The notes under the pieces: model-generated
What the model saw: the letters and a program-made list of their open reading frames with translations, nothing else
What the model was told of the DNA's origin: nothing
Databases searched by the model: none
IMG/VR virus record: IMGVR_UViG_2571042053_000009
DNA: 7,431 nucleotides
Strand: one strand, 5' to 3'
Origin: a virus
Lineage: Duplodnaviria > Heunggongvirae > Uroviricota > Caudoviricetes
In this document: in pieces, positions 1-7,398 of the stretch
How positions within the stretch are numbered: position 1 is the stretch's first letter
Layout: every line of letters starts with the position of its first letter
Made by a program: the position numbers and the translations under genes

Positions 1-36
1 CTCCTGGATTGAAGGAGGTAAATCTTTAAATTCCAT
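1..36 (-). CDS. 5'-partial hypothetical protein (MEFKDLPPSIQE..., continues past left edge)
   Basis: Minus-strand ATG at 36..34 with GAGG about 9 nt upstream; frame stays open to the window edge. Only 12 codons are visible, so no product can be assigned. Confidence 0.3.
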   Translation of the reverse strand, partial: MEFKDLPPSIQE

Positions 37-47
37 CGTCAACCTCA

Positions 48-200
48 TCAGTCGGAGTTTCTTGCTAACCAGCGATGCGCGCCAGCTTCGGTTTTAAACG
101 ATTTGCTTTTGGTATACGTCATGGCGGTGAACGTTCCATCCTGGTTGGGGAACACGCCACACACTAGGGATTCGTTGTTGCCGAGGTCGATTTTTTGCAT
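48..200 (-). CDS. small early-left protein, 50 aa, YdaF-like
   Basis: Minus-strand ATG at 200..198, stop TGA at 50..48. Translation MQKIDLGNNESLVCGVFPNQDGTFTAMTYTKSKSFKTEAGAHRWLARNSD. Below the ORF-track length cutoff. Size and position upstream of the repressor match the YdaF slot of Rac-type prophages (recalled, not verified). It starts 10 nt after the preceding gene's stop. Confidence 0.5.
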   Translation of the reverse strand: MQKIDLGNNESLVCGVFPNQDGTFTAMTYTKSKSFKTEAGAHRWLARNSD

Positions 201-210
201 TTTGCGAATC

Positions 211-345
211 TCACATCTTGTTGCTGCATATAGCGGCTTCTGCCTGCCAGAGATCCCAGTCGTTGCTGCGTAGAGCCTGTACAGCTTGGCTGTAAGTGAT
301 ACCGCAACAATCCATCAAATACTGAACTACTTCGTAATGCACCAT
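211..345 (-). CDS. small early-left protein, 44 aa, YdaG-like
   Basis: Minus-strand ATG at 345..343 with GGGAGAG about 8 nt upstream, stop TGA at 213..211. Translation MVHYEVVQYLMDCCGITYSQAVQALRSNDWDLWQAEAAICSNKM, checked codon by codon. Length matches the 44-aa YdaG of Rac (recalled). Confidence 0.5.
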   Translation of the reverse strand: MVHYEVVQYLMDCCGITYSQAVQALRSNDWDLWQAEAAICSNKM

Positions 346-411
346 TTTATCTCTCCCTTTAACGCCGGGTGGCGGAACTAAAACCTACAGCGCCGTGCTG
401 CTTCTGTAATA

Positions 412-440
412 ATATTAGTTATGTTCATATTAATGATCAA
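412..440 (-). promoter_or_regulatory. candidate leftward early promoter (PL-like): -35 TTGATC, 17-bp spacer, -10 TAATAT
   Basis: On the minus strand, TTGATC (plus 440..435) and TAATAT (plus 417..412) are separated by exactly 17 bp, about 65 bp upstream of the YdaG-like start. The same two hexamers recur at the rightward promoter candidate at 1093..1121. Confidence 0.4.
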
Positions 441-532
441 CACAAATATGCATTTCGTTGATAAAAATGTACTATCCTAATGAAATTTTTAGTGTTTTTT
501 TGATAAAAAGTAAGGCGGGGGCGGGCGGAGGG

Positions 533-560
533 GACAAAAAAACCGCCAAAAATGGCGGTT
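533..560 (-). terminator. rho-independent terminator of the repressor gene
   Basis: Hairpin AACCGCCA (541..548), loop AAAA, TGGCGGTT (553..560), starting 21 bp after the repressor stop. On the minus-strand transcript it is followed by a U-run (complement of the A-run at 533..540). There is no T-run on the plus side, so it is unidirectional. Confidence 0.6.
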
Positions 561-580
561 TAGTTACGAGATGGTGGGAG

Positions 581-1045
581 CTATTTCTTCATGCGTTTTT
601 GAGCTGCCAGCATATTTTCAAATGCTTCTTTGTAGAGTTCATTCTGACCTTTAAGTCTTTCGATTAGTTTTGCTTTTTCTGATTCGGGAAGGATATCAAA
701 AAGATCTAGTAAATCAGCTTGTTGCTTGTTAACCATCCGCCAACCTTCGCCTTCGAAACTTTCGTCATAAGTTCCTGAGGAACGGACGTAATTCATCAGA
801 TCAGCTAAATCAGGCCTCAACTCTTCAGGCTTAACTCTTAGTAATACAGCGAATTTTAATGCCGCATCAGTATTAAGTGGAGCCTTTCCGTTGAGATAAT
901 GGCTAACCGCAGATTGCGCCTCAAAACCCATTAGCTCGGCAGCAAGCTCCTGAGTCAGTTTGAGCTCTCTTTTTTTTGCATCCCAGATTGCGCGCAGACG
1001 TTGCGTAGCTTCCGGCGATGCGATTTCTTCGCGTTTTCTTCTCAT
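581..1045 (-). CDS. prophage immunity repressor, DicA/RacR-like (XRE-family HTH plus C-terminal dimerisation region), 154 aa
   Basis: 154-aa ORF divergent from the Cro-like gene. HTH segment LTQELAAELMGFEAQSAVSHYLNG. The C-terminal segment DLLDLFDILPESEKAKL resembles the DicA C-terminus as I recall it. Too short for a peptidase S24 domain, so not LexA/CI-like self-cleaving. SD-like GGTGG lies just upstream of ATG 1045..1043. Confidence 0.85.
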   Translation of the reverse strand: MRRKREEIASPEATQRLRAIWDAKKRELKLTQELAAELMGFEAQSAVSHYLNGKAPLNTDAALKFAVLLRVKPEELRPDLADLMNYVRSSGTYDESFEGEGWRMVNKQQADLLDLFDILPESEKAKLIERLKGQNELYKEAFENMLAAQKRMKK

Positions 1046-1054
1046 ACCACCATC

Positions 1055-1073
1055 TTATGAATACAGTTCATAA
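1055..1073. promoter_or_regulatory. candidate operator: inverted repeat TTATGAA-N5-TTCATAA
   Basis: Perfect 7-bp arms at 1055..1061 and 1067..1073, in the divergent intergenic region between the repressor start (1045) and the rightward promoter. A degenerate TTATG/TTCATA version recurs near the leftward promoter (about 420..430). Confidence 0.4.
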
Positions 1074-1092
1074 TCTCAAACTGATATAGGTA

Positions 1093-1121
1093 TTGATCAT
1101 TTAAATTAGTATGGTTAATAT
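1093..1121 (+). promoter_or_regulatory. candidate rightward early promoter (PR-like): -35 TTGATC, 17-bp spacer, -10 TAATAT
   Basis: TTGATC at 1093..1098 and TAATAT at 1116..1121 with a 17-bp spacer, about 30 bp upstream of the Cro-like start at 1150. Both -35 elements sit in a TGATCA-centred motif. Confidence 0.4.
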
Positions 1122-1149
1122 TTTTGTGAGCATTACTAAGGTGACCATT

Positions 1150-1425
1150 ATGACATTAGATGAATATTTGAAAAAAAATCGTGTACGACAGTCTTGTTTG
1201 GCCGCGCTGGCTGGTTGTTCGCAATCAATGATTAGCCTCGTTGCTACTGGACGTAGTCAGTTAAGCCCTGAAAAGGTATTGCGTATCGCAGAGGCTACGA
1301 ATTTCGAGGTTACACCTCATGAACTCCGGCCTGATATCTACCCTAATCCGACCGATGGTTTACCTGTTGGATGTAAGGCTAACACGCAAAATGCACAGGA
1401 GTTGATTCATGAAAATCAGGCATGA
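1150..1425 (+). CDS. Cro-like HTH protein, YdaS family, 91 aa
   Basis: Start moved from the ORF-track position 1111 to ATG 1150 because AAGGTG (1138..1143) sits 6 nt upstream. HTH with the ELRPDI motif that I recall as typical of YdaS-type Cro-like proteins. The stop overlaps the next gene's start. Confidence 0.8.
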   Translation: MTLDEYLKKNRVRQSCLAALAGCSQSMISLVATGRSQLSPEKVLRIAEATNFEVTPHELRPDIYPNPTDGLPVGCKANTQNAQELIHENQA

Positions 1426-1831
1426 GCACATCGAATCAGTGTTGTTAGCCCTGGCAGCCGAAAAAGGGCAGGCGTGGGTCGCTAACGCAATTACTGAAGA
1501 ATATCTGCGCCAGGGGGGCGGCGAATTGCCCCTGGTACCAGGCAAGGACTGGAACAATCAGCAGAATATCTATCACCGTTGGTTGAAAGGTGAAACGAAA
1601 GCGCAAAGGGAAAAAATTCAGAAACTGATCCCTGCGGTTCTGGCAATTCTTCCGCGCGAGCTGCGTCACCGACTCTGCATCTTCGATACCCTGGAACGCC
1701 GTGCATTACTGGCGGCGCAGGAAGCGTTGAGTACGGCAATTGATGCGCATGATGATGCAGTCCAGGCCGTTTACCGGAAAGCACATTTCAGCGGTGGTGG
1801 GTCGCCCGGCGATTCTGTCGTAGTGCATTGA
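1409..1831 (+). CDS. ydaT: YdaT-like protein (CII-like regulator, toxic when derepressed), 140 aa
   Basis: 140 aa, the same length as Rac YdaT, and the sequence (MKIRHEHIESVLLALAAEKGQAWVANAITEEYLRQGGGELPLVPGKDW...) matches my memory of YdaT closely. AGGAG lies 6 nt upstream of the ATG; the start overlaps the stop of the Cro-like gene. Confidence 0.85.
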   Translation: MKIRHEHIESVLLALAAEKGQAWVANAITEEYLRQGGGELPLVPGKDWNNQQNIYHRWLKGETKAQREKIQKLIPAVLAILPRELRHRLCIFDTLERRALLAAQEALSTAIDAHDDAVQAVYRKAHFSGGGSPGDSVVVH

Positions 1832-1875
1832 TTGAAATTGATCGTGCCGGATTGTTTTGTTCGGTATCAGTTAAA

Positions 1876-1896
1876 TGTAACGCTGCGAGCGTTACA
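1876..1896. repeat. iteron-like palindrome TGTAACGC-N5-GCGTTACA (copy 1), just upstream of the O-like gene RBS
   Basis: Perfect 8-bp inverted arms in the 77-bp intergenic region between the YdaT-like and O-like genes. Confidence 0.6.
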
Positions 1897-1908
1897 AGGT
1901 GAAAACAA

Positions 1909-2697
1909 ATGGCTTCAAACTGGATAAAGCTCGAGGTTATTACGCCGGATAAGCCGGAAATATTCAGGCTTGCTGAGATTCTGAATATTGATCCAGATGC
2001 CGCATTAGGGAAGGTTATTCGCTTCTGGGCATGGGCGGATCAACAAATGATAGACGGTAATGCAGATTGTAACGCTCGCGGCGTTACAAAAAGTGCAATA
2101 GATCGCATCACTTTTATGGCTGGTTTTGCTGATGCGTTAATTCAGGTTGGATGGCTGGTCGAAAATGACGTTGGGCTTTCTCTACCTAACTTTGAACGTC
2201 ATAACGGAAAAAGCTCTAAAAAACGGGCGGTTACAAACGAGCGAGTTACAAAAATACGCGAACTGAAACGAAAAGGTAACGCTGCCAGCGTTACACAAAC
2301 GGATCAAAAAGCGTTACCAGAGGAAGAGGAAGAGGAAGATATAAATACTGATCTCCCCCTAAATCCCCCTCGCCAAAAACGAGCGTCTAAAAAATTCGAG
2401 CCGGAGGCTATTGAGCTGCCCGATTGGTTGCCGGAAACACTCTGGCATGAGTGGGTCCGGTTCAGACAGGCATTGCGAAAACCGATTCGAACGGAGCAGG
2501 GCGCTAACGGGGCGATACGGGAACTGGAAAAATTCCGTCAGCAGGGTTTTACACCTGAGCAGGTGATTCGACACAGCATCGCCAATGAATACCAGGGCCT
2601 GTTCGCGCCGAAAGGTGTTCGGCCTGAGACGTTGCTCCGACAGGTTAACACCGTCTCGTTGCCGGACAGTGCGATCCCGCCAGGCTTCAGGGGGTAA
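1909..2697 (+). CDS. replication initiation protein, lambda O-like / YdaU-like, with acidic linker, 262 aa
   Basis: AAGGTGA RBS before the ATG. Sits immediately upstream of the DnaC-like gene, as in lambdoid replication modules. Contains internal palindromic repeats and an EEEEEED linker encoded by (AGGAAG)x3 at 2321..2338, recalling the lambda O gene, which contains its own ori. Family assignment is from memory. Confidence 0.8.
   Translation: MASNWIKLEVITPDKPEIFRLAEILNIDPDAALGKVIRFWAWADQQMIDGNADCNARGVTKSAIDRITFMAGFADALIQVGWLVENDVGLSLPNFERHNGKSSKKRAVTNERVTKIRELKRKGNAASVTQTDQKALPEEEEEEDINTDLPLNPPRQKRASKKFEPEAIELPDWLPETLWHEWVRFRQALRKPIRTEQGANGAIRELEKFRQQGFTPEQVIRHSIANEYQGLFAPKGVRPETLLRQVNTVSLPDSAIPPGFRG
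2068..2088. repeat. iteron-like palindrome TGTAACGC-N5-GCGTTACA (copy 2), inside the O-like gene
   Basis: Same 8-bp arms as copy 1 with a different 5-bp spacer (TCGCG). Confidence 0.6.
2277..2295. repeat. iteron-like palindrome GTAACGC-N5-GCGTTAC (copy 3) with nearby half-sites
   Basis: 7-bp arms. Additional GTTACA-type half-sites at about 2227..2237, 2243..2254 and 2311..2317, followed by the (AGGAAG)x3 tract. Confidence 0.55.
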
Positions 2698-2703
2698 CGG
2701 ACC

Positions 2704-3450
2704 ATGAAAAATATTGCGACAGGCGGTGTTCTTGAACGTATCCGTAAGCTGGCTCCGCAGCATGTAACCGCGCCGTACCGGACAGTGGACGAGTGGCGAG
2801 AGTGGCAGCTTGCAGAAGGGCGAAAACGTAGCGAGGAGATCAACCGCCTGAATCGTCAGTTGCGGGTGGAAAAAATTCTGAATCGCTCAGGCATCCAGCC
2901 GTTGCATCGTAAATGCTCGTTTGCAAATTACCAGGTGCAGAACGACGGCCAGCGATACGCGTTGAGTCAGGCGAAATCCATCGCTGATGAAATGATGACC
3001 GGGGGTACAAATTTTGCGTTCAGCGGAAAACCTGGTACCGGGAAGAACCACTTAGCGGCAGCTATCGGAAATCGCCTGCTGAAAGATGGCCAGACAGTGA
3101 TTGTGGTTACTGTGGCTGATGTTATGAGTGCCCTGCATGCCAGCTATGACGACGGACAGTCAGGCGAAAAATTTTTGCGGGAACTGTGCGAAGTGGATCT
3201 GCTGGTTCTTGATGAGATTGGCATTCAGCGCGAGACGAAAAACGAGCAGGTGGTACTGCACCAGATTATTGATCGACGGACAGCGTCGATGCGTAGCGTG
3301 GGAATGCTGACAAATCTGAACTATGAGGCCATGAAAACATTGCTCGGTGAGCGGATTATGGATCGCATGACCATGAACGGCGGACGCTGGGTGAATTTTA
3401 ACTGGGAGAGCTGGCGTCCGAATGTCGTCCAGCCAGGAATTGCGAAGTAA
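2704..3450 (+). CDS. DnaC-like helicase loader (IstB/DnaC AAA+ ATPase), YdaV-like, 248 aa
   Basis: Walker [18 protein letters not shown] and Walker B LLVLDEIG. Length 248 aa and position after the O-like gene match YdaV of Rac-type prophages. Confidence 0.9.
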
Positions 3451-3472
3451 TTTTTACCGGGAGAAAAATTTA

Positions 3473-4234
3473 ATGGAGACTGTTTTTGACGCACTGAAAG
3501 CAATGGGAAAAGCCACATCCATAGAACTTGCTGCGCGACTTGATATCAGTCGTGAAGAGGTACTGAACGAGCTGTGGGAACTGAAAAAAGCTGGTTTTGT
3601 TGATAAAACCGCGTACACCTGGCGCGTGGCTGAAAACAACGTTCAGCAGGAACAGTCAGCGCAGGCAGAACTGCCGGAAGAAACCACCACAGCAACAGTA
3701 GCGAAAATCTCAGAGTGCGATTTAACCGCAACGATTGAACAACGCGGACCACAAACGGCTGATGAGCTGGCTACATTGTTTGATACCACATCACGCAAAG
3801 TGGCTTCAACGCTGGCAATGGCAATCAGCAAAGGTCGTCTGATTAGCGTAAATCAGGGCGGTAAATTTCGTTACTGCATACCGGGCGATAATTTACCAGC
3901 AGAGCCGAAAGCAGCATCGGTAGCGGAAACTGATGGTAAAGCCTTTCCTCAGCCTGCATGTGTTGCGTTACCAGTACAGGAAGCTGCAACACAGGAAGAT
4001 ATTAAAACAGAAACGATGGCGGACATTGTGCAGTCGCTGCCATCGTTTACTGCAACGCGATCTGATGATTTGATTTTGCCATCGCTGCATTTGGCAAACC
4101 GCGAACTGCGTCGGGCGAAAAATCATGTCCAGAAGTGGGAGCGTGTCTGCGCCGCGCTGCGGGAGCTGAATAAACACCGGGATATTTTCAGTTCGATTGC
4201 TGATATTCCGGTTCATTCACCGACAACAAAGTGA
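3473..4234 (+). CDS. hypothetical protein with two winged-helix-like segments, 253 aa
   Basis: Start chosen at ATG 3473 (GGGAGA upstream) rather than the in-frame ATG 3422, which has no SD and would overlap the DnaC-like gene. The N-terminus ([29 protein letters not shown]) and residues around 95-140 both look like wHTH folds. Confidence 0.65.
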
Positions 4235-4249
4235 TCTCCGGAGGTGCTT

Positions 4250-4672
4250 ATGACAAGAGCATTTACACCAGAAGAGCGGAAAAAAATTAAGGGGCTGATC
4301 GTGGAATTCGTACGCCTTAACGGACGAGGCACGATTCGGCAGTTATCGGATGAAATTGGTGTCAGTCATGCGTCTGTCGGTCGTTTATGCATGGAGCTGG
4401 CCGCCAGTGGTGATGTTTACAATTCCGGTTACGGAGTATTCCCGTCTGAGCAGGCGCGCAAGGACTGGCAAAACGCCCGCAAAAAACTCTCAAGGGCAAA
4501 GCTGAAGAAACCATCTGTGGTTGATCCGGACCTTATCTGGCTATTACCAGACGGCGAAATACGCCGCTACGACAGGCGCCTAAACATAATCTGTCGCGAG
4601 TGCCGGAAGAGTGAGGCTATGCAGCGTGTACTGGCTTTCTATCAGGGTAATTTTCAGGAGACGGTACTGTGA
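4250..4672 (+). CDS. hypothetical HTH-containing protein, 140 aa
   Basis: ATG 4250 with GGAGG at 4239..4243; the ORF track used the upstream GTG at 4244. HTH-like segment GTIRQLSDEIGVSHASVGRLCMELAASGDV and a basic C-terminal half. Confidence 0.7.
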   Translation: MTRAFTPEERKKIKGLIVEFVRLNGRGTIRQLSDEIGVSHASVGRLCMELAASGDVYNSGYGVFPSEQARKDWQNARKKLSRAKLKKPSVVDPDLIWLLPDGEIRRYDRRLNIICRECRKSEAMQRVLAFYQGNFQETVL

Positions 4673-4729
4673 GTGAAATTAGCTATCAGGCTTCAATTAC
4701 CGCTGGCATTCGCATCAAAGGAGAGGAGC

Positions 4730-5086
4730 ATGGAAATAAAACCAGAGGATGAGTTAAGCAATATCGTTTTATTTCCGGTAAAAGAGGATGACCCTCGTAA
4801 TCAGGTTAATTTTCTTTATGAGCCATCGGAAAGACCATATTGCCATCACGCCTCTGTTCGGGTTGACGAAAAAGAGCGTCAGGTCCGCTGTAAAATCTGC
4901 GGTGCAGTTGTGGAGCCGTTTGACTGGATGCTCTCTGTGGCGAAAAGAGAAACCAGACTGGCAGATGATGTAAGGCTATTGCGCCAGGAGGAACAGGAAA
5001 GGCGGAAAAATATAGAAAAGTTAATTCAGATTGAGCGTAACGCGAAAGCGCGGATACGCAGGGCGACAAAATCCAGAACTGAATAA
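4730..5086 (+). CDS. hypothetical protein with Cys/His cluster (C-H-H-x13-C-x2-C) and basic coiled-coil tail, 118 aa
   Basis: ATG 4730 preceded by a strong SD (AAGGAGAGGAG, 4718..4728); the ORF-track start at 4673 is a GTG without SD. Possible zinc-ribbon. Confidence 0.65.
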   Translation: MEIKPEDELSNIVLFPVKEDDPRNQVNFLYEPSERPYCHHASVRVDEKERQVRCKICGAVVEPFDWMLSVAKRETRLADDVRLLRQEEQERRKNIEKLIQIERNAKARIRRATKSRTE

Positions 5087-5136
5087 ATAAATTTAGAGCT
5101 GTAAATAAAATCTAATCCTGAACTGGAGGTATATTT

Positions 5137-5349
5137 ATGTTAAATACACAGAAAGCCATTAATGCGGAAAAATATAACGAGTGGGCAAGAAAATTCTCTG
5201 AGCAGATTTTTAAAATTACTGGCGATGAGAATGCGGCAAAAAATGAATTAGAACCGTGGACGCCTGAAGGAGCCGATTCAAATTATTGCTGGAGGGAGGT
5301 TGATCCAGTTGATGCTGCAAATGAAGCTATGAGTTATTACAACGATTAA
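5137..5349 (+). CDS. hypothetical protein, 70 aa
   Basis: GGAGG about 8 nt upstream. AT-rich flanks. Followed by a GNRA-loop hairpin at 5359..5376. Confidence 0.6.
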   Translation: MLNTQKAINAEKYNEWARKFSEQIFKITGDENAAKNELEPWTPEGADSNYCWREVDPVDAANEAMSYYND

Positions 5350-5358
5350 TGTCAGGAG

Positions 5359-5376
5359 GCCGCCCGAAAGGGCGGT
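5359..5376 (+). terminator. stem-loop (CCGCCC-GAAA-GGGCGG), possible terminator or RNA-stability element
   Basis: Perfect 6-bp GC stem with a GAAA tetraloop directly after the 70-aa gene. The downstream T-run is weak, so termination is uncertain. Confidence 0.3.
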
Positions 5377-5461
5377 AATGAATGGTCACATTATTTAGAA
5401 AAAATATCCGCGAAAGAGTAGAACAACAGAATTTCTGTTTCTCATTCTGTTTATCGTGTTG

Positions 5462-5599
5462 ATGATACCGATATCCCCGTTAATCCTAGTCTGGATAATC
5501 GGAAAAATAATTGAGCCAGTTATTGAATTGTATAACGACGTGGTATGGGCGTCATTCAACACACTGCACAATAAAATTAATCCGTATAAGGAAAACTGA
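5462..5599 (+). CDS. candidate small membrane protein, 45 aa
   Basis: Below the ORF-track cutoff. Translation MIPISPLILVWIIGKIIEPVIELYNDVVWASFNTLHNKINPYKEN with a hydrophobic N-terminal half. Its TGA stop (5597..5599) sits 1 nt before the next gene's ATG. No clear SD; the frame is open upstream to 5399 with only non-ATG starts. Confidence 0.3.
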   Translation: MIPISPLILVWIIGKIIEPVIELYNDVVWASFNTLHNKINPYKEN

Positions 5600-5600
5600 T

Positions 5601-5864
5601 ATGGCAACTTTGACAAAAAAAGAACGGGCATGGTTGAACGAATTACAGGAAGTTCTTGATCGCTGTCCATCACCGAAAAAAATTGGCTTTTACACCATTG
5701 GCGATAAAAGCATTTACCTGTATGACCTACGCCGCATGGATGAAATCATGGAGGCTCTTGATAATCGTTCGTCGATGGATTGGTGTGTTGCTGTTCATGA
5801 TATGAATGCAGGGTTTGATGAAAAGATTTTGTTCCCCTCATCAGTTGAAAGCACTGCGGGTTAA
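5601..5864 (+). CDS. hypothetical protein, 87 aa
   Basis: ATG 5601 with AAGGA upstream. The ORF-track version starting at 5511 is an unsupported upstream extension. Confidence 0.6.
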   Translation: MATLTKKERAWLNELQEVLDRCPSPKKIGFYTIGDKSIYLYDLRRMDEIMEALDNRSSMDWCVAVHDMNAGFDEKILFPSSVESTAG

Positions 5865-5874
5865 GGAGTAACAC

Positions 5875-6777
5875 ATGACCACTATTACCAAAGAACGTAT
5901 TGAATTGTTCATTAAAAATCCGCTTGAAAACGGGCTTACCCGTGGTGAACAAATGGAACTGGCACGGATTGCGCTGGCATCGCTGGAAGCAGATCCAGTT
6001 AAACGAGTTAACTCAGATCAGATGCGCCGAGTCTGCTTAGAAGCTAATCGCCATTTAGATAAATATGACGCGATGGCGAAAGAGGTAAATAAGTTGCTTG
6101 GACGCATCGCCCCGCCAGCGCCGGTAGTGCCGGAAGAAGCAACTCCGGAAAACGTAGAAATGCTCTCTGGCTATGTTTCCACGTACAAATTAACCGATAG
6201 CGAGCGCGATATTGCTGCCGAAATATGGAACGCCTGCCGCACCGCCATGCTTCAGTCCGGAAACTTTCGGGAAAGCAAGAATTCGTCAACCAATAATTTT
6301 CGGGAAATCCCGGAAGCGTCAACCAGCTCTCCGGTAACTCCGGCTCTTCTGCCTGGTGGTTTCACCATTGAGGAGGCGAAGGAATTACATGAAGACCTGG
6401 TACGCAGCCACATAAGCAAGGCCTTAAGTGGCGAAAAGATGAAAAAGAAAGATCGCGATGCTGATTTGCGCTGGATTCATGGCGTTATAGTTCAGGCAGC
6501 GTGGTTTGTAAAAGCATCACTGGAGCAGAATGCACTATCGGGCAACTATCCGGTAACTCCGGATAGTTGGATAAGCTGTAGTGAGCGAATGCCGGATACC
6601 AAAACAGCCGTTCTTGTTGCCAGGGAGTTTGACAGGAAAGGTGACTGGCGAATGAAATGGGCTACTTACATCCCGGGGCATCCTGACGCTAATGATGGGT
6701 GGATAATTCCTGGTGCGTCGTGGAAACCGTCACACTGGATGCCGCTACCAGAACCGCCGCAGGAGGTGCGCCAATGA
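5875..6777 (+). CDS. phage protein with DUF551-like C-terminal domain, 300 aa
   Basis: Strong RBS AAGGAG. The C-terminal segment (MPDTKTAVLVAREFDRKGDWR...WMPLPEPP) resembles the DUF551 domain common in enterobacterial prophage proteins (recalled, not verified). Confidence 0.75.
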   Translation: MTTITKERIELFIKNPLENGLTRGEQMELARIALASLEADPVKRVNSDQMRRVCLEANRHLDKYDAMAKEVNKLLGRIAPPAPVVPEEATPENVEMLSGYVSTYKLTDSERDIAAEIWNACRTAMLQSGNFRESKNSSTNNFREIPEASTSSPVTPALLPGGFTIEEAKELHEDLVRSHISKALSGEKMKKKDRDADLRWIHGVIVQAAWFVKASLEQNALSGNYPVTPDSWISCSERMPDTKTAVLVAREFDRKGDWRMKWATYIPGHPDANDGWIIPGASWKPSHWMPLPEPPQEVRQ

Positions 6778-7121: not shown

Positions 7122-7242
7122 AGAAAAGCCCCAGTTAACATTACGCGTCCTGCAAGACGCCTAACATTAATCTGAGGCCAATTTCATGCTAGACACATGT
7201 AGGTTAGCCTCTTACGTGCCGAAAGGCAAGGAGAAGCAGGCT

Positions 7243-7398
7243 ATGAAGCAGCAAAAGGCGATGTTAATCGCCCTGATCGTCATCTGTTTAACCGTCATAG
7301 TGACGGCACTGGTAACGAGGAAAGACCTCTGCGAGGTACGAATCCGAACCGGCCAGACGGAGGTCGCTGTCTTCACAGCTTACGAACCTGAGGAGTAA
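7243..7398 (+). CDS. hokD: Hok/Gef-family type I toxin, 51 aa
   Basis: Translation MKQQKAMLIALIVICLTVIVTALVTRKDLCEVRIRTGQTEVAVFTAYEPEE matches my recollection of HokD (RelF): TM helix plus conserved RKxLCE motif. An in-frame upstream ATG at 7186 gives the 70-codon ORF in the track; this may be a mok-like leader frame. Confidence 0.85.
   Translation: MKQQKAMLIALIVICLTVIVTALVTRKDLCEVRIRTGQTEVAVFTAYEPEE

What the first reader, a model, noticed from the sequence alone, without database searches (positions are those of the whole stretch)
581..1831. Repressor / Cro-like / YdaT-like switch resembling the Rac racR-ydaS-ydaT module
In K-12 Rac the repressor is reported to be essential because derepressed ydaS/ydaT are toxic, a module first described as toxin-antitoxin-like and later reinterpreted as a Cro/CII-type switch. 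This window has the same architecture, but the repressor and Cro-like sequences look diverged from K-12, suggesting a distinct immunity specificity. The repressor and the Cro-like protein both carry an ELRPDx motif after the HTH, so they may share an HTH lineage.
Basis: partly seen in the sequence, partly recalled or inferred. Interest (0 to 1): 0.5.

Follow-up and report, generated by a model that had tools for sequence, protein, structure and literature searches.

The report
Rac-like prophage switch, different repressor
This is the lysis/lysogeny control region of a Rac-like E. coli prophage in which the YdaT regulator is almost identical to K-12's, but the repressor, its DNA sites and half of the Cro-like gene have been swapped for a different immunity cassette; this is an ordinary kind of phage mosaicism.

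Summary
All three are under strong purifying selection.

Comparison with K-12 Rac gives three different answers:
- **YdaT:** 95% identical.
- **Cro-like protein:** 42% identical to YdaS over 50 residues.
- **Repressor:** unrelated to RacR (BLASTP E 4.5, hhalign probability 0.1%, no hit to the NCBIfam RacR model).

The repressor combines a lambda-CI-type DNA-binding domain with a DicA-type C-terminal helical hairpin. It has no S24 self-cleavage domain. A clean mosaic cassette (window ~382-1402) replaces the K-12 racR-ydaS region and carries its own paired PL/PR promoters and 17-bp palindromic operators. No RacR operators are present. The footprinted K-12 YdaT-box is kept over the ydaT start codon (1402-1419).

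The ELRPD motif is real in both proteins. It is a shared trait of lambda-repressor-like HTH domains, where it caps helix 5. K-12 YdaS has it too, and lambda CI has EEFSPS at the same position.

The closest described relative is phage Rac-SA53 (repressor 69.5% identical). The complete cassette occurs in 74 of 5426 complete E. coli genomes, against 1084 for the K-12 type.

Verdict: a heteroimmune CI/Cro/CII-type lambdoid switch, a new member of a known kind, of low to moderate interest.

The parts
382..1402 (.). Immunity cassette: the segment with no DNA homology to K-12 Rac, flanked by ydaG/ydaF-like sequence on the left and ydaT on the right
   Evidence: Pairwise DNA alignments with K-12 Rac lose identity at window ~381 (after GGCGGAACTAA) and regain it at ~1403 (TGATTCATGAAAATCA). 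The complete cassette is present in 74 of 5426 E. coli genomes.
412..440 (-). Candidate PL promoter (-35 TTGATC at 440..435, 17-nt spacer, -10 TAATAT at 417..412), reading leftward into the ydaG/ydaF-like genes
   Evidence: A 42-nt inverted repeat joins 408-449 and 1084-1125 at 71% complementarity. The alignment of reverse-complemented OL with OR shows identical -35 and -10 hexamers and the same spacing. Inferred from sequence, not shown experimentally.
413..429 (.). Candidate operator OL1, TATTAGTTATGTTCATA, overlapping the PL -10
   Evidence: Two mismatches to TATGAA-N5-TTCATA. Its position is equivalent to OR1 in the OL/OR alignment. The chance of two or more such sites in 346-580 is 2e-4.
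447..463 (.). Candidate operator OL2, TATGCATTTCGTTGATA
   Evidence: Aligns with the OR2 candidate at 1072-1088.
540..561 (-). Intrinsic terminator after the repressor stop codon (AAACCGCCATTTTTGGCGGTTT followed by TTTTGT)
   Evidence: Terminator scan: 9-bp stem with 5 GC pairs and a T-run.
581..1045 (-). Prophage repressor (CI analogue), 154 aa. N-terminal lambda-CI-like HTH domain (aa ~12-90); C-terminal DicA-like helical hairpin (aa ~105-154); no S24 peptidase domain
   Evidence: Pfam HTH_3. PDB lambda CI N-terminal domain, E 5.5e-9. AF2 model mean pLDDT 80 with Foldseek top hits to the lambda CI N-terminal domain. DicA C-terminal domain, BLASTP E 9e-7. hhalign against DicA: probability 97.8%. 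No RacR similarity.
1052..1079 (-). Candidate PRM promoter (-35 TTGAGA at 1079..1074, 16-nt spacer, -10 TAAGAT at 1057..1052). It would give a leaderless repressor mRNA starting at or near the ATG at 1045
   Evidence: Promoter scan. A -10-like TAxxxT hexamer lies 6-7 nt upstream of the repressor ATG, with no Shine-Dalgarno, in all 15 family loci examined.
1056..1072 (.). Candidate operator OR3, the perfect palindrome TATGAATACAGTTCATA, within the PRM spacer
   Evidence: In relatives L004 and L005 the half-sites are kept and the 5-nt centre varies.
1072..1088 (.). Candidate operator OR2, AATCTCAAACTGATATA (the weakest assignment)
   Evidence: Palindrome scan. Positionally equivalent to OL2 in the OL/OR alignment.
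1093..1121 (+). Candidate PR promoter (-35 TTGATC at 1093-1098, 17-nt spacer, -10 TAATAT at 1116-1121) driving cro-ydaT and the replication genes
   Evidence: Same hexamers and spacing as PL. TTGA(T/C)(C/A) and TAATAT are conserved at this position in the family loci. K-12 PydaST also has a TAATAT -10 (PMC11879457).
1104..1120 (.). Candidate operator OR1, AATTAGTATGGTTAATA, overlapping the PR -10
   Evidence: Palindrome scan. An equivalent palindrome is present at the same place in L003-L006, L011, L012, L014 and L016.
1150..1425 (+). Cro analogue of the YdaS family, 91 aa. The N-terminal HTH half belongs to the cassette; the C-terminal half (from ~1261) is shared with other YdaS-family genes
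   Evidence: PF15943 40.6 bits. 42% identity to K-12 YdaS over 50 aa. PDB 8c7k 'Cro', E 4e-7. 66% identity to Rac-SA53 'dicC' with a near-identical C-terminal half. The 3' part alone matches in 258 genomes.
1402..1419 (.). YdaT-box TTGATTcATGaaAATCAg, straddling the ydaT start codon at 1409
   Evidence: One mismatch to TTGATT-N6-AATCAA. K-12 Rac YdaT footprints ATGATTCATGAAAATCAA at the same place (PMC11879457). The box is conserved at the cro/ydaT junction in L003, L004, L006, L012, L014, L017 and L018.
1409..1831 (+). ydaT, the CII-analogue transcription factor, 140 aa, overlapping the end of cro by 17 nt
   Evidence: 95% identity to K-12 YdaT, E 7e-103. PF06254. phrog_163 'CII-like transcriptional activator'. 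PDB 8bt1/3c4r. The DNA-binding residues H56, R57 and W58 are present in the sequence.

Best explanation
This is the immunity (lysis/lysogeny) region of a Rac-like lambdoid prophage of E. coli, working as a CI/Cro/CII-type switch with an immunity specificity different from K-12 Rac.

Inferred mechanism:
1. The 154-aa repressor is probably made from a leaderless PRM transcript. It binds 17-bp pseudo-palindromic operators (half-site about TAT[G/T]A[A/G]) at OR (1056-1120) and OL (413-463). This shuts off PR and PL, two near-identical divergently placed promoters.
2. When repression fails, PR expresses the YdaS-family Cro analogue, which is expected to bind the same operators and turn down PRM. 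PR also expresses YdaT and then the replication genes.
3. YdaT is 95% identical to the K-12 protein. It binds the conserved YdaT-box over its own start codon and, as shown for K-12 Rac and CP-933P, acts like CII to boost leftward repressor transcription.
4. The repressor has a DicA-type C-terminal hairpin instead of an S24 self-cleavage domain. Induction is therefore most likely through a small antirepressor (Rem/GfoA type) or by stochastic switching, not RecA-stimulated cleavage.

What is shown: homologies, mosaic junctions, conserved synteny, conserved site positions and purifying selection. What is inferred: promoter and operator function, the leaderless transcript, the Cro/YdaT regulatory logic in this cassette and the induction route.
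For: Gene content and order. Prophage context in a near-identical locus, with int-xis-ralR-recT-recE-racC-ydaE-kilR to the left and replication and lysis genes to the right. YdaT 95% identical; Cro in the YdaS family. Repressor N-terminal domain homologous to lambda CI and 53% identical over aa 15-89 to the S24-type CI of Stx2 phages (P0034 and P0035). Repressor C-terminal domain homologous to DicA. No Pfam S24 domain. Mosaic junctions. Paired PL/PR with a 42-nt inverted repeat. Operator-like palindromes enriched in the two control regions, P = 2e-4 for the OL pair. Half-sites conserved and centres variable in relatives. A -10 hexamer 6-7 nt from the ATG in 15 of 15 loci. YdaT-box conserved: matching the footprinted K-12 box (PMC11879457). 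Repressor-cro-ydaT synteny across Salmonella, E. albertii, Serratia, Raoultella, Citrobacter, Yersinia and Rouxiella. dN/dS 0.04-0.10. Literature for the CI/Cro/CII reading: PMC5917428 and PMC8630535. Antirepressor control of DicA/Gifsy-type short repressors: and PMC3121763.
Against: No experimental data exist for this cassette; every promoter and operator assignment rests on sequence pattern and conservation. OR2 is weak and abuts OR3 (centres 16 bp apart). The generic promoter scanner did not call PR or PL, which score 8 of 12 consensus positions. In K-12 Rac, YdaS reportedly does not repress racR (PMC9638921), so Cro-like behaviour cannot be assumed. The K-12 PRE-equivalent promoter (PracR4) lies inside ydaS, which is replaced here, so YdaT-dependent repressor activation is unverified. 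The only leftward promoter-like site found in cro (1174..1147) is unvalidated. No antirepressor gene was found in the window. The near-identical prophage carries only a 26-aa Rem remnant.
Confidence: 0.85

Rival explanations
1. The module is a toxin-antitoxin-like or 'toxin-repressor' addiction cassette. YdaS-like and YdaT-like proteins are dedicated toxins, and the repressor exists mainly to keep them silent, making it essential to the host.
For: Pfam still names the families YdaS_toxin and YdaT_toxin. RacR depletion in K-12 is lethal with ydaS/ydaT up-regulated (PMC5700377 and PMC5700373). High-level Rac YdaT causes filamentation and death through host rcsA (PMC11879457), and the YdaT here is 95% identical.
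Against: The position is that of cro and cII in a complete early region with replication genes downstream and the kilR/recET operon upstream. YdaT and YdaS homologues were shown to be DNA-binding regulators and not a TA pair (PMC8630535; PMC5917428). The repressor is transcribed divergently rather than co-transcribed with the 'toxins'. Paired OL/OR control regions show the repressor governs two operons. In the near-identical prophage, derepression would also express KilR, so lethality would not be specific to ydaS/ydaT.
Confidence: 0.08
2. The repressor is a highly diverged orthologue of RacR, so the whole module is simply a fast-evolving version of racR-ydaS-ydaT.
For: Same position, orientation and size (154 versus 158 aa), with an N-terminal HTH in both. 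Lemire et al. group RacR and DicA with the short Gifsy-type repressors (PMC3121763).
Against: BLASTP E 4.5. Profile comparison gives probability 0.1%. The NCBIfam RacR equivalog model does not hit this protein but hits RacR at 244 bits. The family profile matches DicA at 97.8% instead, and the N-terminal domain matches lambda CI. The DNA alignment shows sharp junctions, not gradual divergence. The operators differ.
Confidence: 0.03
3. The region is a decaying remnant of a dead prophage; the genes are intact by chance and the switch no longer operates.
For: Related prophage copies carry pseudogenes: recT is frameshifted and there are truncated DUF551 and rem fragments. K-12 Rac is itself cryptic.
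Against: dN/dS is 0.04-0.10 for all three genes against a Salmonella homologue with dS of 0.8-1.3. The cassette is intact at 93-100% identity in 74 genomes. Regulatory sites are conserved across genera.
Confidence: 0.04

Closest known systems
E. coli K-12 Rac prophage racR-ydaS-ydaT immunity region
   Same: Same architecture and prophage backbone (ydaF/ydaG-like genes to the left, ydaV-like gene to the right). YdaT is 95% identical. The YdaT-box sits over the ydaT ATG. The Cro analogue is in the same Pfam family, 42% identical over 50 aa. The PR -10 is TAATAT in both.
   Different: The repressor is non-homologous. Operators are TAT[G/T]A[A/G]-type 17-mers instead of TAGGC-N3-GCCTA. cro overlaps ydaT by 17 nt here, whereas K-12 has a 22-nt gap. 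The replication initiator is different. In the near-identical prophage of strain 155 (L001) the integration site is next to yebY/copD. This cassette is about 15-fold rarer: 74 versus 1084 of 5426 genomes.
Escherichia phage Rac-SA53 (KU052037; LT-II-encoding Rac-like prophage, Jobling 2016) 'dicA'-'dicC'-ydaT
   Same: The closest described relative. The repressor is of the same family (69.5% identity over 98% of its length). The Cro is 66% identical with an almost identical C-terminal half. YdaT is 94% identical. The YdaT-box is identical. The layout is the same, with kilR-ydaE-racC-recE to the left.
   Different: The recognition-helix region of both the repressor and Cro differs, and so do the operator half-sites (TATTTG/TATTGG and AATTAG/TATTAG versus TATGAA). 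This is probably yet another immunity specificity within the same family.
DicA-DicC of the Qin cryptic prophage (E. coli K-12)
   Same: The repressor C-terminal domain (aa 105-154) is homologous to DicA residues 85-134 (30% identity, E 9e-7; hhalign 97.8% over the full length). Both are short HTH repressors without a cleavage domain. Both are divergent from a Cro analogue.
   Different: The score is below the NCBIfam DicA cutoff (35.6 versus 101 bits, C-terminal domain only). The N-terminal domain is closer to lambda and Stx-phage CI. The Cro here is unrelated to DicC. Qin has no ydaT after dicC.
CP-933P (O157:H7) PaaR2-YdaS-YdaT immunity region
   Same: An experimentally shown bistable CI/Cro/CII-like switch with a leaderless repressor mRNA, YdaS binding the intergenic operators and YdaT activating a PRE-like promoter (PMC8630535). 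The YdaT-box consensus TTGATT-N6-AATCAA matches at 11 of 12 positions. The Cro-like protein matches PDB 8c7k/8co2 and YdaT matches 8bt1.
   Different: No paaA2-parE2 toxin-antitoxin genes follow the repressor; a terminator follows it instead. The phmmer match of this YdaT to the CP-933P-type structure 8bt1 is only E 1.7e-6. PaaR2 itself could not be compared because its sequence was not retrieved.
Phage lambda cI-cro-cII with OL/OR
   Same: The repressor N-terminal domain is homologous to the lambda CI N-terminal domain, including the Q-S recognition-helix residues and the helix-5 cap. It also shares divergent PRM/PR, a leaderless repressor mRNA (inferred), a duplicated OL/PL control region, 17-bp operators with TAT-initiated half-sites, and cII-position and O/P-position genes.
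   Different: The C-terminal domain is not an S24 peptidase, so RecA-mediated cleavage is not expected. Cro is an all-helical YdaS-type HTH. The CII analogue is a YdaT (POU-like) protein. Operator spacing also differs.
Gifsy-type short repressors with LexA-controlled antirepressors (GfoR/GftR; Rem for DicA)
   Same: A short, non-cleavable repressor class found in enterobacterial lambdoid prophages (PMC3121763). The DicA-type C-terminal domain is shared.
   Different: No antirepressor gene was identified in the window. Only a truncated Rem-like fragment lies after hokD in the near-identical prophage L001. No direct similarity to the Gifsy repressors was tested.

Membership tests
Rac-type racR-ydaS-ydaT module (K-12) | RacR-family repressor (NCBIfam NF049929 equivalog) | tested here: not met
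   No hit to NF049929, while K-12 RacR scores 244.6 bits. BLASTP E 4.5. hhalign probability 0.1%.
Rac-type racR-ydaS-ydaT module (K-12) | YdaS-family Cro analogue divergent from the repressor | tested here: met
   PF15943 40.6 bits against a cutoff of 30. 42% identity over 50 aa to K-12 YdaS, E 6e-8.
Rac-type racR-ydaS-ydaT module (K-12) | YdaT-family protein immediately downstream in the same operon | tested here: met
   PF06254 43.3 bits against a cutoff of 21. 95% identity over 140 aa. ydaT overlaps cro by 17 nt.
Rac-type racR-ydaS-ydaT module (K-12) | RacR operators (T/A)TAGGC-N3-GCCTA(T/A) in the intergenic region | tested here: not met
   No match with two or fewer mismatches anywhere in 1-6400; the only hit is at 6413. 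The consensus comes from PMC9638921.
Rac-type racR-ydaS-ydaT module (K-12) | YdaT-box inverted repeat over the ydaT start codon | tested here: met
   TTGATTCATGAAAATCAG at 1402-1419, against the footprinted ATGATTCATGAAAATCAA.
Rac-type racR-ydaS-ydaT module (K-12) | Repressor essential; derepressed ydaS/ydaT toxic | not testable with these tools
   Requires genetics in a strain carrying this prophage, for example 99E2750 or strain 155.
Lambdoid CI/Cro/CII immunity region | Divergent repressor and cro genes separated by a short region with overlapping promoters and multiple shared operators | tested here: met
   A 104-bp intergenic region with PRM-like and PR-like hexamers and three 17-bp pseudo-palindromes. 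This is sequence-level evidence only.
Lambdoid CI/Cro/CII immunity region | Second operator/promoter set (OL/PL) on the other side of the repressor gene | tested here: met
   A 42-nt inverted repeat joins 408-449 and 1084-1125 with identical -35/-10 hexamers. Two operator-like sites lie there, P = 2e-4.
Lambdoid CI/Cro/CII immunity region | Repressor with a LexA/S24-type autocleavage C-terminal domain | tested here: not met
   No PF00717 hit. The model shows an all-helical C-terminal hairpin. Relatives with the same N-terminal domain do carry PF00717 (P0034 and P0035).
Lambdoid CI/Cro/CII immunity region | CII-type activator and replication genes downstream of cro | tested here: met
   phrog_163 'CII-like transcriptional activator' and phrog_2509 replication initiator. 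phrog_50 DnaC-like helicase loader.
DicA / Gifsy-type short prophage repressors | About 135-155 aa, N-terminal HTH_3 plus a C-terminal helical domain with the LLxLFxxLPESE motif, and no Ala-Gly cleavage module | tested here: met
   hhalign against DicA: probability 97.8%, E 1.3e-12. BLASTP on the C-terminal domain: E 9e-7.
DicA / Gifsy-type short prophage repressors | Meets the NCBIfam DicA subfamily model (NF007257) cutoff | tested here: not met
   35.6 bits against a cutoff of 101; only aa 105-154 match.
DicA / Gifsy-type short prophage repressors | Inactivated by a small antirepressor rather than by cleavage | not testable with these tools
   No Rem-like ORF in the window. A 26-aa Rem remnant lies at L001:18660-18737.
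Type II toxin-antitoxin system | Co-transcribed toxin and antitoxin pair, with the antitoxin neutralising the toxin by protein binding | tested here: not met
   The repressor is divergently transcribed. YdaS and YdaT homologues are DNA-binding regulators. Protein-protein neutralisation itself was not testable.

The most novel reading that the evidence does not exclude
The repressor represents an undescribed hybrid family, unnamed in databases: a lambda/Stx-phage CI-type DNA-binding domain fused to a DicA-type C-terminal hairpin. It would be switched off only by small antirepressors. Because the prophage's own Rem-like gene appears degraded in the near-identical copy, induction of this Rac-like element (recET, kilR, and YdaT acting on host rcsA) would depend on antirepressors supplied in trans by co-resident prophages in polylysogenic STEC/ETEC strains. 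That would be a case of inter-prophage crosstalk.
Probability: 0.25. Interest if true: 0.45.

Novelty: new member of a known kind. Interest (0 to 1): 0.25.

Why it matters
The value is mainly in annotation. The 'toxin YdaS/YdaT' labels and any 'RacR-like' label would mislead here. The locus is a heteroimmune lambdoid switch whose repressor belongs to a different family from RacR.

It also offers a natural experiment. The same YdaT and YdaT-box are coupled to a different repressor, Cro and operator set. That arrangement could be used to separate what in the K-12 RacR-depletion phenotype comes from YdaT (host rcsA activation) and what comes from the specific repressor/Cro pair. It could also test how YdaT activates repressor synthesis when the K-12 reverse promoter inside ydaS has been replaced.

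The strains carrying the cassette include human isolates of serogroups O111 and O121 and pig ETEC isolates. The induction route of such prophages is therefore of some practical interest.

Tried and rejected
- **RacR homology** was tested three ways (BLASTP, profile-profile, NCBIfam) and rejected.
- **DicC as the Cro relative:** no alignment.
- **RacR operator consensus:** absent from the region.
- **Foldseek of the full repressor model against the PDB:** returned only hits to the N-terminal HTH domain (lambda CI, HigA, C proteins) and nothing informative for the C-terminal hairpin. I did not fold the 50-aa hairpin alone, because helical hairpins match indiscriminately.
- **Sequence search of the PDB:** found no solved relative of the C-terminal domain.
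- **A second YdaT-box-like site inside cro** (1211-1228, two mismatches). It lies on the conserved GCSQS coding stretch and recurs only in L005, not L004, so I treat it as probably coding-driven.
- **Rem antirepressor:** searched by tblastn and not found in the window. PHROG scans of the remaining window ORFs found no antirepressor family.
- **The generic promoter scanner** did not call PR or PL, which score 8 of 12 consensus positions. Their assignment rests on the OL/OR duplication and cross-genus conservation instead.
- **PaaR2** could not be compared because its sequence was not retrieved.
- **A PRE-equivalent leftward promoter** could not be assigned with confidence. The only candidate is 1174..1147.
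Full report
**1. What is in the sequence**

ORF listing and family scans confirm three genes.
- A leftward 154-aa HTH protein at 581-1045.
- A rightward 91-aa YdaS-family protein at 1150-1425. An AAGGTG Shine-Dalgarno lies 7 nt upstream of this start, which is also the RefSeq start.
- A 140-aa YdaT-family protein at 1409-1831, overlapping cro by 17 nt.

Downstream are a replication initiator (1909-2697, phrog_2509), a DnaC-like helicase loader (2704-3450), DUF1627, a Ren-like DUF977 protein and other early-region genes. Upstream are ydaG-like and ydaF-like genes. A 99.8%-identical locus in E. coli strain 155 shows the whole element is a Rac-like lambdoid prophage. It runs int-xis-ralR-recT-recE-racC-ydaE-kilR ... 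repressor-cro-ydaT-replication ... hokD ... lysis, and is inserted next to yebY/copD. The best whole-window match is strain 99E2750, at 99.7% over 100% of the window.

**2. Comparison with K-12 Rac**

I fetched the K-12 Rac region and compared each protein.
- YdaT is 95% identical over all 140 residues.
- The Cro-like protein is 42% identical to YdaS over 50 residues, E 6e-8.
- The repressor shows no similarity to RacR (E 4.5).

A 22-sequence profile of the repressor family (alignment A3) also fails to match RacR (hhalign probability 0.1%). The NCBIfam RacR equivalog model does not hit it.

DNA alignments show abrupt junctions. Identity with K-12 runs through the ydaF/ydaG-like genes up to window ~381, is lost, and resumes at ~1403, exactly at the YdaT-box and ydaT start. 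It ends again at the ydaT stop. Window ~382-1402 is therefore a swapped immunity cassette.

The complete cassette occurs in 74 of 5426 complete E. coli genomes, among them human isolates of serogroups O111 and O121 and pig isolates of O139 and ETEC. The K-12 racR-ydaS cassette occurs in 1084. The 3' half of cro (window ~1261-1402) also occurs joined to other YdaS-family 5' halves in further genomes, 258 with any match. A second recombination joint therefore lies inside cro. Only the HTH-encoding half travels with the repressor and operators.

**3. What the repressor is**

Residues 12-82 match the lambda CI N-terminal domain (PDB 3kz3 and 1lmb, E 5.5e-9 to 6e-8). An AlphaFold2 model (mean pLDDT 80.3) gives the lambda CI N-terminal domain as the top Foldseek hits (TM-score 0.75-0.82 on the target). 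Residues 15-89 are 53% identical to the S24-type CI of Stx2 phages. Database relatives P0034 and P0035 carry the same N-terminal domain fused to Peptidase_S24.

The protein in the window has no S24 domain. Residues 105-154 form a confident helical hairpin (H107-118 and H121-153) that is homologous to the C-terminal domain of DicA, the Qin prophage repressor. The evidence is BLASTP E 9e-7, the NCBIfam DicA model on this stretch only at 35.6 bits against a cutoff of 101, and profile comparison with DicA at 97.8% probability.

So the repressor is a lambda-CI-type DNA-binding domain on a DicA-type C-terminal domain. It is neither a RacR nor a DicA equivalog.

The closest described relative is the 'dicA' gene of phage Rac-SA53 (69.5% identity). 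The neighbouring 'dicC' and ydaT genes of Rac-SA53 correspond to the window's cro (66% identity) and ydaT (94%).

**4. Control sites (inferred from sequence and conservation)**

A 42-nt inverted repeat links 408-449 with 1084-1125. Aligned, the two regions share -35 TTGATC, a 17-nt spacer and -10 TAATAT. These give PR (1093-1121, rightward) and PL (440..412, leftward).

A perfect 17-bp palindrome, TATGAATACAGTTCATA, lies at 1056-1072. The only other sites in the whole window within two mismatches of its half-sites are at 413-429 and 447-463, both in the PL region. The chance of two such sites in 346-580 is 2e-4.

Further pseudo-palindromes overlap the PR -10 (1104-1120) and lie at 1072-1088. 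These two are positionally equivalent to the two OL sites. In Salmonella and soil-MAG relatives with 92%-identical repressors, the half-sites are conserved while the 5-nt centre varies. More distant relatives have analogous palindromes at the same positions with different half-sites.

On the repressor strand, all 15 family loci examined have a -10-like TAxxxT hexamer ending 6-7 nt before the ATG, and no Shine-Dalgarno. Here the hexamers are TTGAGA-16-TAAGAT at 1079..1052. This predicts a leaderless repressor mRNA, as for lambda cI and paaR2 (PMC8630535). A strong intrinsic terminator follows the repressor gene (561..540). RacR operators are absent.

**5. The conserved YdaT part**

The sequence TTGATTCATGAAAATCAG at 1402-1419 straddles the ydaT ATG. 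In K-12 Rac, YdaT footprints ATGATTCATGAAAATCAA at the same place, and binding there activates a leftward promoter inside ydaS that raises racR expression 29-fold (PMC11879457). CP-933P YdaT recognises TTGATT-N6-AATCAA (PMC9986795 abstract).

The box is conserved at the cro/ydaT junction in seven other family loci. The DNA-binding residues H56, R57 and W58 are present in this YdaT. Because ydaS is replaced here, the K-12 reverse promoter is not. Which leftward promoter YdaT would serve in this cassette remains open; the one candidate is at 1174..1147.

**6. The ELRPD motif**

It is real in both proteins: repressor E75-L80 and Cro E58-I63. The two align at E 5e-6. In the model, the motif spans the end of the short helix 73-76 and the N-cap of helix 78-90, which corresponds to lambda CI helix 5. 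Lambda CI has EEFSPSI at the aligned position.

The motif is a general trait of both families:
- It is near-invariant in the repressor family.
- It forms part of TPHELRPDIYPNPTDGLP in most partner Cro proteins.
- It is present in K-12 YdaS (EELRPDI), whose partner RacR lacks it.
- The repressor aligns with the non-cognate K-12 YdaS at E 3e-4.

It indicates a shared fold and deep ancestry. It does not indicate a special relationship within this pair.

**7. Mechanism and induction**

The best-supported reading is a lambda-like bistable switch with CI, Cro and CII analogues. This is as argued for Rac by Jobling (PMC5917428) and shown for CP-933P (PMC8630535).

DicA-type and Gifsy-type short repressors are not cleaved; they are inactivated by small antirepressors (PMC3121763; Rem for DicA). 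The repressor here shares the DicA C-terminal domain and lacks S24, so antirepression or stochastic switching is the most likely induction route.

No antirepressor was found in the window. The near-identical prophage has only a 26-aa Rem-like remnant after hokD. That leaves open control in trans by other prophages.

**8. Selection and distribution**

dN/dS against the Salmonella homologue is 0.04 (repressor), 0.10 (cro) and 0.10 (ydaT), with dS of 0.8-1.3. The repressor-cro-ydaT synteny holds in Salmonella, E. albertii, Serratia, Raoultella, Citrobacter, Yersinia and Rouxiella. In Pseudescherichia and Shimwellia the repressor homologue has other neighbours.

**9. Verdict**

It is wrong in treating the repressor as a diverged RacR, and it over-reads the ELRPD motif. 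This is modular exchange of an immunity cassette in a lambdoid prophage, a textbook phenomenon, with a close relative already deposited and annotated (Rac-SA53). I rate it a new member of a known kind, with interest about 0.25.

Noticed in passing
window 1877-1895, 2069-2087, 2276-2294: Three perfect 19-bp palindromes, GTAACGC-N5-GCGTTAC, spaced 192 and 207 bp apart. One lies just upstream of the replication-initiator start codon (1909) and two lie inside that gene. The expected number with up to 3 mismatches is 0.24, and none of 200 shuffles reached 3. They are probably initiator-binding or origin sites, by analogy with lambda ori inside gene O. Extra GTTACAA half-sites lie around 2226-2250.
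   Followed up: partly
window ~1261 (inside cro) and ~1403: There is a second mosaic joint inside cro. The 3' half (1261-1402, encoding SPEK...TPHELRPDIYPNPTDGLP) is shared with other YdaS-family genes in many genomes, while the HTH half is specific to the cassette. The right-hand junction with K-12 Rac coincides exactly with the YdaT-box, which suggests the conserved regulatory site acts as a recombination linker.
   Followed up: partly
window 7186-7398 (+); L001:18660-18737: A Hok/Mok-type type I toxin gene (phrog_251 'MokW-like host killing') lies at the right end of the window. In the near-identical prophage of strain 155, a 26-aa fragment 69% identical to the Qin antirepressor Rem follows hokD. 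This mirrors the hokD-rem order in Qin.
   Followed up: partly
window 387-401 (-): A terminator-like hairpin (GCAGCACGGCGCTGT followed by AGGTTTTAGT) lies immediately downstream of the predicted PL start site, at the left cassette junction. It could be an early attenuator or antitermination target, or a chance match.
   Followed up: no
L007, L008, L010, L013 (Pseudescherichia); L015 (Shimwellia): In these genomes the repressor homologue (about 50-52% identical) is not paired with a YdaS/YdaT pair. The divergent neighbour is a small 65-74-aa protein or a 224-245-aa replication-type protein instead. The repressor family is therefore not tied to the cro-ydaT module.
   Followed up: no
window 1211-1228: A second YdaT-box-like sequence, CTGGTTGTTCGCAATCAA (2 mismatches), lies inside cro, 191 bp from the main box. 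It recurs at the same position in L005 but not in L004. It lies on the conserved GCSQS codons, so it may be a coding by-product. YdaT is a tetramer able to bridge two sites.
   Followed up: partly
window 3422-4234 and 4244-4672: The DUF1627 ORF as listed overlaps the end of the DnaC-like gene by 29 nt. The PHROG match begins at residue 18, so the true start may be downstream. The DUF977 protein matches PHROG 'Ren-like exclusion protein'.
   Followed up: no
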